Part shown: positions 58,198-63,210 of the stretch, in pieces
Layout: the number at the start of each line of letters is the position of its first letter
Position numbering within the stretch: position 1 is the first letter of the stretch
Virus record (IMG/VR): IMGVR_UViG_3300013005_000022
Span: 54,443 to 118,442 of that record
Length of the DNA stretch: 64,000 nt
Source of the DNA: a virus
Lineage: Duplodnaviria; Heunggongvirae; Uroviricota; Caudoviricetes
Reading direction: 5' to 3' (one strand)
Notes under the pieces: model-generated
What the model was told of the DNA's origin: nothing
What the model saw: the letters and a program-made list of their open reading frames with translations, nothing else
The model's database searches: none
Program-made: the position numbers and the translations under genes

Positions 58198-58851
58198 ATG
58201 GCTATACCTAAAATTATACATCAAATCTGGATCGGTCCCAAGAAATGTCCAGAAAAGCTAATACAAACATGGCGAGATTTTCATCCAGAAAAAGATGGTT
58301 GGAAACATATACTATGGACAGATAAAGACGTTGAAGATTTCAAAATGAAAAACATACGTCATTATAACGAAATTGAAGAATGGGCTGGTAAAGCAGACGT
58401 TTGGCGATATGAAATTTTACATCGTTATGGTGGATTCTTTTGTGATGCTGATTCTATTTGCACTAATACACTAGATGATTTTTTCTTTGAAAATGATTGT
58501 TTTGCTGGTTTTGAAAACGAACAAGCCAGACCTAATCTAGTGGCAAATGGTTATATTGGTGCCACCAAAGATAATGCATTTATGAAAATTCTTATTGATG
58601 AATTATACAAAACAACTTCAGTTTCACAGAAATATACCAATCGTTTAGCTTGGCAAAACACCGGTCCTCTTTTCTTTACAACTAATATCATCAAACATCA
58701 ATATCCCATTTCAGTTTATCCTTCGTTTGTGTTTATTCCTGAACATTATTCAGGCGTCAAATATACTGGTGATAAAAAATCTTATTCCAAGCAACTATGG
58801 GGTAGTACTCAAGAATTTGGATCTAACCCTAACTTTTATAACGAATTATGA
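58198..58851 (+). CDS. GT32-family (Och1-like, DXD) glycosyltransferase
   Basis: PKIIHQIWIGPKK...GWKHILWTD and GGFFCDADSIC (DXD) match the Gly_transf_sug/GT32 signature. Confidence 0.7.
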   Translation: MAIPKIIHQIWIGPKKCPEKLIQTWRDFHPEKDGWKHILWTDKDVEDFKMKNIRHYNEIEEWAGKADVWRYEILHRYGGFFCDADSICTNTLDDFFFENDCFAGFENEQARPNLVANGYIGATKDNAFMKILIDELYKTTSVSQKYTNRLAWQNTGPLFFTTNIIKHQYPISVYPSFVFIPEHYSGVKYTGDKKSYSKQLWGSTQEFGSNPNFYNEL

Positions 58852-59552
58852 TAGTATCTGTAATTGTTCCTATTTACAACACCCCTATTGAATGGCTTAA
58901 CTTAGCTGTCGAATCTATTAAAACACAAACATATAAAGATCTACAGATTCTACTTATTGATGATTGTTCAACCGATCCGGAAGTACAAAAAACCTGTCAA
59001 GATCTAGAAGATTCTGATACTCGAATAGAGTATTATCGATTAGAAGAAAATCGCGGTATTTCCGGTGCTCTTAATGTTGGTTTGTATTACTCTAAATCCG
59101 AATGGGTTTTTAGAATGGATGCCGATGATATTATGTTACCTGAACGTATTACAATTCAAATGGAATATCTAAAAGAAAATCCTACGGTTGATATTCTTGG
59201 TGGTGGTCTTTTCTACTTGATAAAGGATGGAGATCAATGGGGTTACGATCCAAATCCAGTAAACCATCCACCGGTAATTAATAGAGAAAATGCTAAAGGA
59301 TCCCATTGGTTTATTAATCATCCGACTGTGGTTTATAGAAAATCTAAAATTCAGGAAATTGGTGGATATGATGAATCGCTAAGAGGATTGCCTGAAGATT
59401 ACGAACTTTGGTGTAGATCTTTGCGAAACAATCTAGTTATGCATAATCTTCCAATTCCTTTAATATTCTTAAGGCTTTCGCCAAAATCACTTTCACAGAA
59501 CTTCAATTCTAGAGTACTTGATTTCCTAAACAAAATACAAAACACGTTATGA
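58848..59552 (+). CDS. family 2 glycosyltransferase
   Basis: IVSVIVPIYNT...ESIKTQTYKDLQILLIDDCSTD...NRGISGALNVG...RMDADDIM. Confidence 0.85.
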   Translation: MIVSVIVPIYNTPIEWLNLAVESIKTQTYKDLQILLIDDCSTDPEVQKTCQDLEDSDTRIEYYRLEENRGISGALNVGLYYSKSEWVFRMDADDIMLPERITIQMEYLKENPTVDILGGGLFYLIKDGDQWGYDPNPVNHPPVINRENAKGSHWFINHPTVVYRKSKIQEIGGYDESLRGLPEDYELWCRSLRNNLVMHNLPIPLIFLRLSPKSLSQNFNSRVLDFLNKIQNTL

Positions 59553-60316
59553 TAACTACATCTTTAATGGGTGGACTTGGTAATTACATGTTTCAGATAT
59601 CCACTGCATATTCTATTGCAAAAGATTTACGAACCGATGCAGTATTTGATTTAAGTCGAACCGGACAATCCCAAAGACACATCAATAATTACCTAAACAA
59701 CCTCTTCCGTAAAGTAAAATTTGGAACTCCTATTCCAAAATACATCTTCAACGAAAGGGGATTTAGTTACGATCCAATTCCTGTAGCTGATGATTTATAT
59801 TTGAGTGGATATTTTCAAAGCGAAAAATACTTCAATAAATATGCTGAAGATATTCGAGAATTGTTTAAGTGTAAAGATACAGAAAATCAATTAAGAGAAC
59901 ACCTCTCTCAAATTGAATGTACATGTTCAATACATGTTAGACGAGGAGATTACCTAAAATACCCAAACAAACATACACAATCACCGACCGAGTATTATGA
60001 TACGGCTATTTCACTAGTAAAAGAAAAACATCCGAATGTTACCTTCTTGATATTTTCCGATGATATTCAATGGTGTAAAAACCACTTCATTGGGAATGAA
60101 TTTACCTTCATTGAAGGATTTGAAGATTGGGAAGATCTAATACTTATGTCTTTATGTGATGCAAATATTATAACAAATTCAACATTTTCTTGGTGGGCAG
60201 CTTGGTTAGGTGAAAAACCTAATAAGCTAATCATTGCACCAGAAAAATGGTTTGGTCCAGAAGGACCTCAAGATCAACAAGATATTATACCAGAAAGATG
60301 GACAAAATTAAGATAA
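59549..60316 (+). CDS. GT11-family alpha-1,2-fucosyltransferase-like glycosyltransferase
   Basis: GGLGNYMFQ (FutC GGLGNQMFQ), HVRRGDY (HxRRGDY), NSTFSWWAAWL (NSTYSWWAAYL), IIAPEKW. Confidence 0.85.
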   Translation: MITTSLMGGLGNYMFQISTAYSIAKDLRTDAVFDLSRTGQSQRHINNYLNNLFRKVKFGTPIPKYIFNERGFSYDPIPVADDLYLSGYFQSEKYFNKYAEDIRELFKCKDTENQLREHLSQIECTCSIHVRRGDYLKYPNKHTQSPTEYYDTAISLVKEKHPNVTFLIFSDDIQWCKNHFIGNEFTFIEGFEDWEDLILMSLCDANIITNSTFSWWAAWLGEKPNKLIIAPEKWFGPEGPQDQQDIIPERWTKLR

Positions 60317-61128: not shown

Positions 61129-62048
61129 AGAAAATTCTTATAACCGGATCTAACGGAATGGTTGGTAAAGACCTTATTAAATTAATAGAAGATGAAGGAT
61201 TATATTCAGTAATTAGAGTTCCTTCTAAAGTATATGATCTTAGAGATTCTCAAGATGTATTTAGCTTATTCCTACATACTAAACCGGATATTGTAATTCA
61301 TTTAGCTGCAAAGGTTGGAGGAATTGTAGATAACATTGAAAAACCTGCCGAATATACCGAAGACAATTTACTAATGAATACGAACATCGTATCGGCTTCT
61401 CGTAATTTTGGAGTAAGGAGATTAATTGGAATTCTCTCAACTTGTGCATACCCTGATAAAGTTGAATCATATCCTATGTCAGAAGAACAACTACATGATG
61501 GTCCACCTGCACCAACAAATTTTGGATATGGTATATCTAAGCGTTGTATGGCTTCGCATATAGATGCCATCAATAAACAATATGGTCTAGAATATCAATA
61601 TCTAATCCCTTGTAATTTGTACGGAGAACATGATAAATTCGATAATCAACGAGCTCATTTTATTTCTGCATTAATTAAGAAAATCTCAGATGCTAAAGAT
61701 CAAAATCAAGATGAAGTAACTCTATTTGGAGATGGTACTCCTCTTCGACAATTTATGCATTCTCATGATTTAGCTACCATCATATATGAATGTATCAAAA
61801 GAGAAATAACAGAATCTATGAATGTGGCAACGGAAGAAAATCTTTCGATTGATGAAATGGCACATATTGCTAGAACTTCTTTAGGCGCCGATCATATAAA
61901 AATAAAATACGATATAACCAAACCAAATGGTCAATATAGAAAAGACGTTTCTATACAAAAATTACGTAAACATTTCCCAGACTTTAAATTCACCTCTTTA
62001 GGTGATGGGATAAAACAAATATATCAAACTTATGCAAAAACCAATTAA
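61125..62048 (+). CDS. GDP-L-fucose synthase-family (Fcl/ColC-like) NAD(P)-dependent epimerase/reductase
   Basis: Collinear with E. coli Fcl: ILITGSNGMVGKDL, HLAAKVGGI, PTNFGYGISK, YLIPCNLYGEHD, FGDGTPLRQFMHSHD. Confidence 0.8.
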   Translation: MKKILITGSNGMVGKDLIKLIEDEGLYSVIRVPSKVYDLRDSQDVFSLFLHTKPDIVIHLAAKVGGIVDNIEKPAEYTEDNLLMNTNIVSASRNFGVRRLIGILSTCAYPDKVESYPMSEEQLHDGPPAPTNFGYGISKRCMASHIDAINKQYGLEYQYLIPCNLYGEHDKFDNQRAHFISALIKKISDAKDQNQDEVTLFGDGTPLRQFMHSHDLATIIYECIKREITESMNVATEENLSIDEMAHIARTSLGADHIKIKYDITKPNGQYRKDVSIQKLRKHFPDFKFTSLGDGIKQIYQTYAKTN

Positions 62049-63210
62049 GTTAGTATCTGACACAATTGATAAAAAAGACCTAAAGGCTCTTTCTGATTGG
62101 ATGTTACAATCAGAAACCCCTCAATTAACAAAAGGTCCTTTAACAATTGAGTTCGAAAAAGATTGGTCAGAATGGTTAGGCGTAAAACATACAACCTACG
62201 TAAATTCTGGTTCATCTGCAATTCTTTTAGCGCTTGCCGCTCTTAAAGAAACTAATCGTTTAAGAAATGAAAAAGTCGTAGTTCCTGCATTAAGTTGGCT
62301 AACCGATGTTAGTTCTGTTATGCAATTAGGAATGGATCCTATTCTATGCGATTGTAATTATGAAGACCTTTCATTAGACCTTAATGATTTAGAAGAGATA
62401 TTCAAAGAAGAAAATCCATCAGTAATGATTTTAGTTTCTGTTCTTGGTTTAGTACCAGATATGAATTCCATCGTTAAACTTTGTAAAAAATATGGTGTCT
62501 ATCTAATTGAAGATGTGTGCGAAAGTATGGGATCTTCTTACAAAGGAAATAAATTAGGAACATTCGGTGACATATCATTATTCTCTCTTTATTACGGACA
62601 TCACATCTCAACTATTGAAGGAGGTTTAATTTGTACCAACAATGAAGAACTAAATACGATAATTCGATCAATGAGATCACATGGTTGGGATCGCGATTGG
62701 AACGATAAAACAAAAAAGGAATATCGAGATTTACATGATATATCTGAATTTGATTCGATGTATACCTTCTATTATCCAGGATATAATCTTAGATCAACTG
62801 ATTTACAAGCCTTCATTGGTTTACGCCAAATACAAAAGATTGATAAATTCTCAGAGATTCGTTCAGATAACTTTAAGATCTATCAAGAATTGTTATCTGG
62901 AATCAATGAATTAGATATTGTATATCGTGAAGATTCTTTTATCTCAAACTTTGCATATCCAATGGTACATGAAAAGCGAGAAGAAATTATATCTGCCCTT
63001 AAAGAAAATCACATTGAAGTTCGTCCTTTGATCGCCGGAAATATGGCTAATAAACCATTTTGGAAAATGAAATATGGAGATCGAAACGATTTCTTCTTCA
63101 ATTGTGTTAATATAGATGGATATGGATTCTATTTACCAAATCATCAAGGTTTGAATAGAGAAGATATTGAATTTATTTGTTCAATTATATCAAATATTGT
63201 AAACTCTTAG
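62032..63210 (+). CDS. DegT-family PLP enzyme with His in place of the Schiff-base Lys (sugar 3-dehydratase-like, ColD/E1-type)
   Basis: DegT-family fold; at the position of the conserved SxHxxKxxxxGEGG it reads SLFSLYYGHHISTIEGG (K->H), the hallmark of GDP-4-keto-6-deoxymannose 3-dehydratase ColD and CDP-hexulose 3-dehydrase E1. Confidence 0.65.
   Translation: MQKPIKLVSDTIDKKDLKALSDWMLQSETPQLTKGPLTIEFEKDWSEWLGVKHTTYVNSGSSAILLALAALKETNRLRNEKVVVPALSWLTDVSSVMQLGMDPILCDCNYEDLSLDLNDLEEIFKEENPSVMILVSVLGLVPDMNSIVKLCKKYGVYLIEDVCESMGSSYKGNKLGTFGDISLFSLYYGHHISTIEGGLICTNNEELNTIIRSMRSHGWDRDWNDKTKKEYRDLHDISEFDSMYTFYYPGYNLRSTDLQAFIGLRQIQKIDKFSEIRSDNFKIYQELLSGINELDIVYREDSFISNFAYPMVHEKREEIISALKENHIEVRPLIAGNMANKPFWKMKYGDRNDFFFNCVNIDGYGFYLPNHQGLNREDIEFICSIISNIVNS

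What the first reader, a model, noticed from the sequence alone, without database searches (positions are those of the whole stretch)
58198..63210. Second glycan locus: GT32, GT2, GT11 and GT10 fucosyltransferase-family enzymes plus Fcl/ColC-like reductase and a Lys-to-His DegT enzyme (ColD/E1-type 3-dehydratase)
GT11 (GGLGNYMFQ, HVRRGDY, NSTFSWWAAWL) and GT10 (VIENTNIAGWFTEKL...GTVP) signatures are clear. These are the families that build Lewis/H-type fucosylated epitopes. The Fcl-like enzyme and the adjacent DegT-family protein, whose PLP lysine is replaced by His-His (SLYYGHHISTIEGG), together resemble the GDP-colitose pathway (ColD + ColC). This suggests synthesis of a 3,6-dideoxyhexose or fucose and its transfer by fucosyltransferase-like GTs. 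A phage carrying machinery for fucosylated/colitosylated glycans is unusual and could serve glycan mimicry, virion decoration or O-antigen conversion.
Basis: partly seen in the sequence, partly recalled or inferred. Interest (0 to 1): 0.8.

Follow-up and report, generated by a model that had tools for sequence, protein, structure and literature searches.

The report
Phage-encoded colitose sugar operon
A large phage of a probable Bacteroidota host carries six tightly packed genes that most likely make the rare sugar GDP-L-colitose (3-deoxy-fucose) and attach it with fucosyltransferase-like enzymes; similar gene sets occur in many uncultured phages but seem never to have been described as a colitose pathway.

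Summary
Window 58198-63210 (+) holds six overlapping, co-directional genes: a GT32-like transferase, GT2, GT11, a GT10-like transferase, an Fcl/ColC-type epimerase-reductase, and a DegT-fold enzyme with His in place of the Schiff-base Lys.

The DegT enzyme is ColD-type, not E1-type. Its best solved relative is E. coli ColD, His190 aligns with ColD His188, and E1's four-Cys [2Fe-2S] motif is absent.

The reductase keeps the complete Fcl/ColC catalytic set. It overlaps the dehydratase gene in the same order as colC-colD in E. coli O55:H7.

All six genes are conserved and under purifying selection in related ~200-250 kb phage contigs.

The rarity claim fails. ColD-like genes form a virus-dominated clade, with 252 IMG/VR relatives found. 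These typically sit in an SDR-ColD-Gmd arrangement with GT11 and GT10 nearby. The same set occurs in 587-656 kb phages and in cultured Synechococcus phage ACG-2014f.

This lineage is atypical in lacking Gmd at the locus and in about 101 kb examined. It must use a host Gmd or one encoded elsewhere.

Still unresolved: the acceptor (host envelope glycan or virion), the donor choice (colitose or fucose) and the linkages. This is an orthodox pathway in a new, under-annotated viral setting.

The parts
58198..58851 (+). GT32-like glycosyltransferase (217 aa). DXD motif at D83-A-D85. Soluble.
   Evidence: PF04488 E 1.3e-10 and PF05704 E 3.5e-6. DXD motif present and no TM segment. 93% identical in L089; dN/dS 0.05.
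58848..59552 (+). GT2 glycosyltransferase (234 aa). Soluble.
   Evidence: PF00535 E 2.6e-30. Overlaps its neighbours by 4 nt on each side. dN/dS 0.12 against L089.
59549..60316 (+). GT11 alpha-1,2-fucosyl/colitosyl-transferase family enzyme (255 aa).
   Evidence: PF01531 E 3.8e-33. 30% identity, E 8.6e-36, to E. coli O55 WbgN, the characterised colitosyltransferase (PMC11987014). Motifs HVRRGD and STFSWW present.
60298..61128 (+). GT10-like alpha-1,3/4-fucosyltransferase-family enzyme (276 aa from the likely start; the ORF is open from 60247).
   Evidence: PF00852 25.3 bits against cut-off 23.9. Aligns with the H. pylori alpha-1,3-FucT 2nzw C-terminal donor domain, E 3.4e-10, with the ENT...TEK motif conserved. 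40% identical to the huge-phage homologue, which scores PF00852.
61125..62048 (+). Extended-SDR epimerase/reductase of the Fcl/ColC family (307 aa). Predicted GDP-L-colitose synthase.
   Evidence: PF01370 E 3.3e-52; best NCBIfam model Fcl, 225.8 bits, below its 500-bit equivalog cut-off. 37% identical to human FX, 35.5% to E. coli ColC, 32% to E. coli Fcl. Ser105, Cys107, Tyr135, Lys139 and His178 are conserved. Overlaps the ColD-like gene by 17 nt, in the same order as colC-colD in E. coli O55.
62032..63210 (+). ColD-type PMP/PLP-dependent GDP-4-keto-6-deoxy-D-mannose 3-dehydratase homologue (392 aa). Catalytic His190.
   Evidence: PF01041 E 6.8e-70. Best solved relative is ColD 2gms, E 3.5e-51; His190 aligns with His188. 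E1's Cys-rich [2Fe-2S] segment is replaced by a Cys-free segment. His190 aligns with the Lys of a true aminotransferase. dN/dS 0.08.

Best explanation
The six genes form one cytoplasmic, translationally coupled operon of a large tailed phage. The operon makes GDP-L-colitose and builds a short colitosylated and/or fucosylated glycan.

Step 0 (inferred). The host supplies GDP-mannose. GDP-4-keto-6-deoxy-D-mannose is made by a Gmd that is not in this locus, either the host's or one elsewhere in the phage genome.

Step 1 (strong homology inference). The ColD-type enzyme binds the 4-keto sugar to PMP. His190 acts as the acid/base that expels the C3 hydroxyl. Hydrolysis releases GDP-4-keto-3,6-dideoxy-D-mannose. 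Glutamate regenerates PMP, so no iron-sulfur cluster or reductase partner is needed.

Step 2 (homology plus gene linkage). The Fcl/ColC-type SDR epimerises C5 using Cys107 and His178. It then reduces C4 using Ser105, Tyr135, Lys139 and NAD(P)H, giving GDP-L-colitose. The same enzyme may also convert the undehydrated intermediate to GDP-L-fucose.

Step 3 (family-level inference). GT2 and the GT32-like enzyme make or extend an acceptor. The GT11 and GT10-like enzymes cap it with alpha-1,2- and alpha-1,3/4-linked L-deoxyhexose, giving an H/Lewis-like di-substituted motif.

Step 4 (open). The acceptor is either a host envelope glycan intermediate or phage virion proteins.
For: - Family assignments of all six proteins.
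- ColD is the best solved relative. His190 aligns with His188, and PMP- and substrate-contact positions are invariant between phage, cellular and E. coli ColD sequences.
- The Fe-S motif is absent.
- His190 aligns with the Lys of a genuine aminotransferase.
- The SDR keeps the full Fcl/ColC catalytic set and reproduces the colC-colD order and overlap of E. coli O55:H7.
- In 67 non-identical IMG/VR loci with a ColD-like gene: Gmd occurs in 55 (53 within 1 kb), an Fcl-like SDR in 56, GT11 in 43, GT10 in 45, and all five in 30.
- Phages of 587-656 kb carry Gmd...GT10-GT11-SDR-ColD.
- Cellular relatives often have Gmd and an Fcl-like SDR next to the ColD-like gene.
- The six-gene cassette is syntenic in relatives at 75-100% ColD identity. 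dN/dS is 0.05-0.12 against L089 (0.11-0.18 against the more distant L172).
- The GT11 enzyme WbgN transfers colitose, and GT11 enzymes accept both GDP-Col and GDP-Fuc (PMC11987014).
- Pathway definitions come from PMC8987622 and PMC7685785.
Against: - No Gmd, ManB or ManC in the 64 kb window or in about 101 kb of the 89%-identical 254 kb contig. The substrate supply is therefore assumed.
- The SDR cannot be assigned to ColC rather than Fcl by sequence. E. coli ColC and Fcl are closer to each other (39%) than either is to the phage enzyme.
- Identity to E. coli ColD is only about 30%.
- The GT10 match is marginal and covers the donor domain only.
- GT donor specificity, linkages and acceptor are inferred from family membership alone.
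- No experiment exists for any viral member.
Confidence: 0.65

Rival explanations
1. This is a GDP-L-fucose locus only. The SDR is an ordinary Fcl feeding two fucosyltransferases, and the His-type DegT protein is inactive or serves an unrelated reaction.
For: The SDR is as close to human GDP-fucose synthase (37%) as to E. coli ColC (35.5%), and it has the complete Fcl catalytic set. GDP-fucose and fucosyltransferase genes are the reported norm in cyanophages (PMC9602691).
Against: The ColD-like gene overlaps the SDR gene, keeps the catalytic His and conserved cofactor positions, and evolves at dN/dS 0.08. The SDR-ColD pair is co-inherited in most viral loci: 50 of 67 have the SDR within 1 kb. 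The SDR scores well below the Fcl equivalog cut-off.
Confidence: 0.12
2. The dehydratase and SDR make a 3,6-dideoxyhexose other than L-colitose. Possible routes are a different nucleotide carrier, or reduction with different stereochemistry.
For: Only about 30% identity to E. coli ColD. No Gmd at the locus in this lineage. Product stereochemistry cannot be read from sequence.
Against: Orthologues at 53-65% identity are flanked by canonical Gmd in 53 of 67 viral loci. The SDR keeps the Cys/His epimerisation pair of Fcl/ColC, which predicts an L-sugar. GT11 and GT10 families use GDP-beta-L-deoxyhexose donors (PMC11987014).
Confidence: 0.08
3. This is a CDP-linked E1 (RfbH/AscC) type 3-dehydrase, as the automatic JGI names and the best NCBIfam model suggest. 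It would feed an abequose/paratose/tyvelose-type pathway.
For: The top NCBIfam hit is RfbH at 234 bits, and JGI names homologues CDP-6-deoxy-D-xylo-4-hexulose-3-dehydrase. E1 is the second-best solved relative, E 1.2e-47.
Against: The RfbH score is far below its 423-bit cut-off. E1's Cys-rich cluster segment aligns with a Cys-free segment. No E3-type reductase, CDP-glucose dehydratase or cytidylyltransferase is in the cassette. Relatives sit next to Gmd instead.
Confidence: 0.03
4. This is a sugar aminotransferase making a GDP-4-amino sugar (perosamine-like).
For: DegT family membership. Perosamine synthases are among the solved relatives, E about 1e-36.
Against: The Schiff-base Lys is replaced by His, with no nearby Lys. 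All 83 viral and 80 cellular relatives also carry His-His, but that set was retrieved with patterns containing HH, so the count is biased. Per the review PMC8987622, native ColD and E1 show no transaminase activity.
Confidence: 0.03

Closest known systems
E. coli O55:H7 colitose genes: colC (colB)-colD (colA, wbdK) plus the GT11 colitosyltransferase WbgN
   Same: The gene pair has the same order, overlap and sizes (307 aa + 388 aa, against 307 + 392 here). The catalytic His and the Fcl-type catalytic residues are shared. A GT11 enzyme lies in the same cluster.
   Different: Identity is only 30-36%. The E. coli cluster also carries gmd, manC, manB, wzx and wzy and is a complete O-antigen locus. 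The phage cassette has none of these and adds a GT10-like enzyme.
Viral ColD-clade module in IMG/VR contigs and in 587-656 kb phages (L006, L007; also LR756502)
   Same: Orthologous ColD (53-65%), SDR (about 50-58%), GT11 and GT10 (about 30-49%), clustered together.
   Different: Those loci usually have Gmd directly after ColD. The window lineage lacks it, has the GT11-GT10 order reversed relative to the huge phages, and carries its own GT32-like and GT2 genes.
Synechococcus phage ACG-2014f (NC_026927) gp223-gp226; cyanophage GDP-fucose / 'LPS' genes (S-SCSM1, P-SSM2)
   Same: These are cultured phages. ACG-2014f has Gmd - Fcl-like SDR - His-His DegT - GT11 in a row. Phage GDP-fucose and fucosyltransferase genes are described in PMC9602691.
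   Different: The cyanophage ColD-like gene is only 33% identical and falls outside the viral clade in the NJ tree. It is annotated only as epimerases, aminotransferase and glycosyltransferase. The papers found describe fucose genes, not colitose.
Yersinia E1 (AscC/RfbH) and SpnQ 3-dehydratases
   Same: Same fold and the same Lys-to-His replacement (PMC8987622).
   Different: They bind a [2Fe-2S] cluster through four Cys and need a reductase partner. The window protein lacks the motif.
Vibrio cholerae O139 colitose-containing capsule/O-antigen (own knowledge, not tested here)
   Same: It carries two colitose residues on a Gal-GlcNAc-type backbone, a Lewis-b-like motif. A GT11 + GT10 pair supplied with GDP-colitose would be expected to make something similar.
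   Different: No sequence comparison was made. The phage glycan structure is unknown.

Membership tests
ColD (GDP-4-keto-6-deoxy-D-mannose 3-dehydratase) | DegT / aspartate-aminotransferase-type fold | tested here: met
   PF01041 E 6.8e-70. Full-length alignment to ColD 2gms, E 3.5e-51.
ColD (GDP-4-keto-6-deoxy-D-mannose 3-dehydratase) | Catalytic His in place of the Schiff-base Lys | tested here: met
   His190 aligns with ColD His188 and with the Lys of the aminotransferase at 23360-24442. Feature defined in PMC8987622.
ColD (GDP-4-keto-6-deoxy-D-mannose 3-dehydratase) | No [2Fe-2S] cysteine motif and no reductase partner; this distinguishes ColD from E1 and SpnQ | tested here: met
   E1's segment RDCYCAPGCDNTCKK aligns with the Cys-free segment HGWD...RDWNDKT.KKEY. 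No E3-like gene in the cassette.
ColD (GDP-4-keto-6-deoxy-D-mannose 3-dehydratase) | Acts on the Gmd product (GDP-linked substrate); genetic linkage to gmd | tested here: inconclusive
   Orthologues are adjacent to Gmd in 53 of 67 viral loci and 25 of 79 genome loci. No Gmd in this window or in about 101 kb of a close relative.
ColD (GDP-4-keto-6-deoxy-D-mannose 3-dehydratase) | Measured C3-deoxygenation activity with glutamate-dependent PMP regeneration | not testable with these tools
   Needs an enzyme assay.
E1 (CDP-6-deoxy-L-threo-D-glycero-4-hexulose 3-dehydrase, RfbH/AscC) | Four-Cys [2Fe-2S] binding motif | tested here: not met
   The NCBIfam RfbH score is 234 against a cut-off of 423.
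ColC / Fcl (GDP-4-keto-(3,)6-deoxy-mannose epimerase-reductase, extended SDR) | Rossmann GxxGxxG, Ser-Tyr-Lys triad and the Cys/His epimerisation pair | tested here: met
   GSNGMVG motif. S105, C107, Y135, K139 and H178 align with E. coli Fcl S107, C109, Y136, K140 and H179, and with E. coli ColC.
ColC / Fcl (GDP-4-keto-(3,)6-deoxy-mannose epimerase-reductase, extended SDR) | Reaches the curated Fcl equivalog score | tested here: not met
   NF047922 225.8 bits against a cut-off of 500. It is a family member but not a called Fcl equivalog.
ColC / Fcl (GDP-4-keto-(3,)6-deoxy-mannose epimerase-reductase, extended SDR) | ColC rather than Fcl: gene directly coupled to colD | tested here: met
   17-nt overlap with the ColD-like gene. 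Same arrangement as E. coli O55 colC-colD and 42 of 67 viral loci.
ColC / Fcl (GDP-4-keto-(3,)6-deoxy-mannose epimerase-reductase, extended SDR) | ColC separable from Fcl by sequence | tested here: inconclusive
   35.5% to ColC, 32% to Fcl, 37% to human FX. E. coli ColC against E. coli Fcl is 39%.
GT11 (alpha-1,2-fucosyl/colitosyl-transferases) | Pfam PF01531 above the gathering score, with HxRRGD and SxFSWW motifs | tested here: met
   115.4 bits against 23.9. Motifs present. 30% identity to WbgN.
GT11 (alpha-1,2-fucosyl/colitosyl-transferases) | Donor (GDP-Col or GDP-Fuc) and acceptor | not testable with these tools
   WbgN and FUT2 both accept either donor (PMC11987014), so sequence cannot decide.
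GT10 (alpha-1,3/4-fucosyltransferases) | PF00852 donor-binding domain with the FxxxxENxxxxxYxTEK motif | tested here: met
   25.3 bits against 23.9, which is marginal. H. pylori FucT alignment E 3.4e-10 with ENT...TEK conserved.
GT10 (alpha-1,3/4-fucosyltransferases) | N-terminal acceptor domain of known GT10 enzymes | tested here: inconclusive
   Residues 1-140 have no significant match. No structure prediction was run.
Complete Wzx/Wzy-type O-antigen or capsule locus | Initiating phosphoglycosyltransferase, flippase and polymerase (membrane proteins) | tested here: not met
   No TM segment in any of the six proteins. No homologues of E. coli Wzx, Wzy, WcaJ, ManB or ManC in the window or flanks. 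These families are divergent, so absence by tblastn is weak evidence.

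The most novel reading that the evidence does not exclude
The ColD-clade module (Gmd, ColD, ColC-like SDR, GT11, GT10) is a virus-maintained glycan system shared by very different aquatic phages, from about 35 kb contigs to 650 kb genomes. It would build a dicolitosyl, Lewis-b/y-like epitope not encoded as a unit by the nearest cellular relatives: GT11 + GT10 occur together in 39 of 67 viral loci and 0 of 79 genome loci. 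The epitope would decorate virions or re-code the infected cell surface. The Gmd-less cassette here would be a derived form that parasitises the host's GDP-fucose pathway.
Probability: 0.3. Interest if true: 0.65.

Novelty: new member of a known kind. Interest (0 to 1): 0.45.

Why it matters
Colitose is regarded as a rare bacterial O-antigen sugar. If phages commonly encode its synthesis and transfer, three things follow.

1. Many viral genes now labelled 'aminotransferase', 'epimerase' or 'CDP-...-3-dehydrase' are mis-annotated. They actually mark a GDP-colitose pathway.
2. Phages may routinely change the deoxyhexose make-up of host surfaces or of their own particles. That would affect superinfection, grazing and lectin recognition.
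3. The viral enzymes are a new, diverse source of ColD, ColC and colitosyltransferase catalysts for making rare L-sugars.

For this window alone the result is mainly a well-supported annotation.

Tried and rejected
- **E1/CDP pathway.** Rejected on the missing Fe-S motif, the sub-threshold RfbH score and Gmd linkage in relatives.
- **Aminotransferase reading.** Rejected on the His-for-Lys alignment.
- **Separating ColC from Fcl by sequence.** I recovered the real E. coli O55 colC, colD, wbgN, fcl and gmd genes by back-translating ColD and searching E. coli genomes. Pairwise identities do not separate the two functions.
- **Search for Gmd.** tblastn with E. coli and huge-phage Gmd covered the window, 9 kb downstream on the same phage, and positions 104,575-205,894 of the 89%-identical 254 kb IMG/VR contig, reached by walking. 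Nothing was found.
- **Close relatives among deposited phages.** None. Only a 72% patch in the 642 kb LR756502.
- **Promoter and terminator scan.** Uninformative.
- **GT11 against solved structures.** No hit.
- **Literature.** No paper on phage-encoded colitose was found. Three primary papers (PMC2533848, PMC4813730, PMC2782820) were not held.
- **Are the two cellular sequences inside the viral clade (L008, L012) really phage DNA?** Inconclusive.
- **DNA glycosylation as the target.** Considered. The paper on viral DNA glycosyltransferases mentions neither GDP-sugars nor GT10/GT11 enzymes, so this is kept only as a minor possibility.

Full report
**Setting.** The window is phage DNA. It encodes a T4-type large terminase (13775-15565), a 1086-aa tail sheath (15621-18881), a tape-measure-like protein, topoisomerase II subunits and PhoH. 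A cohesin protein with a type IX secretion C-terminal sorting domain (43222-45144) and several signal-peptide proteins point to a Bacteroidota host. G+C is uniform at about 0.33 and nearly all genes are on the + strand. No deposited phage is closely related. The same phage occurs in several JGI and Logan metagenomes. Relatives at 89% identity lie on IMG/VR contigs of 207 and 254 kb, so this is a large phage.

**Observation.** Six ORFs fill 58198-63210 without gaps, with junction overlaps of 4, 4, 19, 4 and 17 nt. Pfam assigns them to a GT32-type DXD region (PF04488), GT2, GT11, GT10 (marginal, 25.3 against 23.9 bits), the NAD-dependent epimerase/dehydratase family and DegT. The GT10-like gene probably starts at 60298 rather than 60247. 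None of the six proteins has a membrane segment.

**The dehydratase.**
- The best solved relative is E. coli ColD (2gms, E 3.5e-51), followed by Yersinia E1 (E 1.2e-47) and then true aminotransferases.
- The first His of GHHISTIEGG aligns with ColD His188. The mutant entries H188N and H188K fix that position.
- The same His aligns with the Schiff-base Lys of the phage's own aminotransferase at 23360-24442.
- E1 and SpnQ bind a [2Fe-2S] cluster through four Cys, and ColD does not (PMC8987622). The E1 segment RDCYCAPGCDNTCKK aligns with a Cys-free stretch here.
- Positions invariant between phage, cellular and E. coli ColD sequences include the ED.CES, FS..HH..T.EGG and R.HGW.R blocks.
The automatic 'CDP-...-3-dehydrase' names on homologues are not supported.

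**The reductase.**
- It belongs to the Fcl/ColC family: 37% identical to human GDP-fucose synthase, 35.5% to E. coli O55 ColC and 32% to E. coli Fcl.
- I obtained the genuine E. coli genes by back-translating ColD and searching E. coli genomes.
- Ser105, Cys107, Tyr135, Lys139 and His178 match the catalytic Ser107, Cys109, Tyr136, Lys140 and His179 of E. coli Fcl. They are also conserved in E. coli ColC. An epimerising reductase, and so an L-sugar product, is predicted.
- Sequence cannot tell ColC from Fcl: the two E. coli enzymes are 39% identical to each other.
- Context can. In E. coli O55:H7, colC (307 aa) overlaps colD (388 aa) in the same order as here.

**Distribution.**
- The nearest homologues of the ColD-like protein (62-66% identical) lie on contigs of 587-656 kb that also carry gp32, which marks them as huge phages. 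Their order is Gmd ... GT10, GT11, SDR, ColD.
- A pattern scan of IMG/VR found 252 relatives.
- Among 67 non-identical loci from the best 80: 55 have a canonical Gmd (53 within 1 kb), 56 an Fcl-like SDR, 43 GT11, 45 GT10, 39 both transferases, and 30 all five genes. PhoH and further GT2 genes are frequent neighbours.
- Among 79 species-representative genomes with a relative (31-55% identity): 35 have Gmd and 39 an SDR nearby. Only 4 have GT11, 3 have GT10, and none has both.
- In a neighbour-joining tree the viral sequences form one clade. Only two MAG/SAG sequences sit inside it.
- Caveat: both sets were chosen by similarity to the query and retrieved with HH-containing patterns, so the sampling is biased.
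- The cultured Synechococcus phage ACG-2014f has Gmd, an Fcl-like SDR, a His-His DegT and GT11 in a row, annotated only generically.
- Such machinery is therefore not rare in phages. GDP-fucose and fucosyltransferase genes in cyanophages are already in the literature (PMC9602691, PMC10611076). I found no paper describing a phage colitose pathway.

**This lineage.**
- The window, its metagenomic copies and relatives down to 75% ColD identity share the same six-gene cassette and the same flanks.
- All six genes are under purifying selection. dN/dS is 0.05-0.12 against the 89% relative, with dS 0.5-1.2.
- Unlike most viral loci, no Gmd follows ColD.
- No Gmd, ManB or ManC was found in the window, in 9 kb downstream, or across positions 104,575-205,894 of the 254 kb relative.
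- The rest of the genome could not be reached. The cassette as seen depends on a Gmd supplied by the host or encoded elsewhere.

**Mechanism.**
- The host provides GDP-mannose, and a Gmd provides GDP-4-keto-6-deoxy-D-mannose (inferred).
- The ColD-type enzyme removes the C3 hydroxyl through a PMP Schiff base, with His190 as acid/base. Glutamate recycles the cofactor (by homology; mechanism from PMC8987622).
- The SDR epimerises C5 and reduces C4 to give GDP-L-colitose, which is 3-deoxy-L-fucose. It may also make GDP-L-fucose from the undehydrated intermediate.
- GT11 enzymes can use either donor: WbgN of E. coli O55 is a colitosyltransferase, and both WbgN and human FUT2 accept GDP-Col and GDP-Fuc (PMC11987014). 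Donor supply rather than transferase sequence will decide what is transferred.
- GT2 and the GT32-like enzyme presumably build the acceptor. GT11 and the GT10-like enzyme add alpha-1,2 and alpha-1,3/4 L-deoxyhexose, giving an H/Lewis-like motif. These are family-level inferences.
- The locus has no initiating transferase, flippase or polymerase. It therefore modifies an existing acceptor in the cytoplasm. My rough estimates, not computed: a host envelope glycan intermediate about 45%, virion proteins about 35%, anything else the remainder.

**Verdict.**
- The rarity claim is not supported.
- The pathway is orthodox and known in bacteria. What is new is its viral setting, its breadth among uncultured phages, and the Gmd-less form in this lineage.
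- I rate it a new member of a known kind, with moderate interest.

Noticed in passing
window 21083-25962: A first, separate deoxy-amino-sugar locus. It holds an NDP-hexose 2,3-dehydratase (PF03559, E 3.5e-136), a Gfo/Idh/MocA oxidoreductase, a DegT aminotransferase with the normal Lys, a PglD-like hexapeptide N-acetyltransferase and a GT2. This looks like a 3-acetamido-2,3,6-trideoxyhexose-type pathway.
   Followed up: partly
window 2933-3373 and 1295-2881: The phage encodes SmpB, the tmRNA-binding protein (PF01668, E 4.4e-48). Next to it is a TROVE (Ro60-like) domain protein.
   Followed up: no
window 43222-50339: A block of secreted proteins. It includes a cohesin protein with a T9SS C-terminal sorting domain, a 564-aa Ser/Gly/Thr/Asn-rich protein, and a protein with C-type lectin and concanavalin-like (Laminin_G_3) domains. 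These are phage-encoded secreted lectin-like proteins and could relate to the glycan loci.
   Followed up: no
window 13094-13771: A polysaccharide deacetylase (PF01522, E 2.3e-21) lies directly upstream of the large terminase gene.
   Followed up: no
L001 15749-16921; L178 17179-21063 (downstream of the window in the same phage and in its 89% relative): A third sugar-related cluster: a 390-aa GT2, a second GT2, a truncated UDP-glucose/GDP-mannose dehydrogenase (286 aa), a cupin_2 protein and a DUF6445 protein. An Hc1 histone-like protein and a cytidylyltransferase-like protein lie nearby.
   Followed up: partly
L179 19666-20841: A thymidylate synthase homologue of 391 aa, about 125 aa longer than the Pfam model because of an internal insertion.
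   Followed up: no
L008 (Saprospiraceae MAG, 20 kb contig) and L012 (Marinimicrobia SAG): These are the only two 'cellular' ColD-like sequences nested inside the viral clade. L008 has the typical viral SDR-ColD-Gmd order. They may be phage DNA binned into a MAG or SAG.
   Followed up: partly
E. coli O55 ColC and viral SDRs, alignment A2, the column at E. coli Fcl His170 in NLYGPHDN (window His169): The window SDR and E. coli Fcl have His at this position. E. coli ColC and three other ColD-linked SDRs have Tyr or Gly. It is not the catalytic His179, and its meaning is unknown.
   Followed up: no
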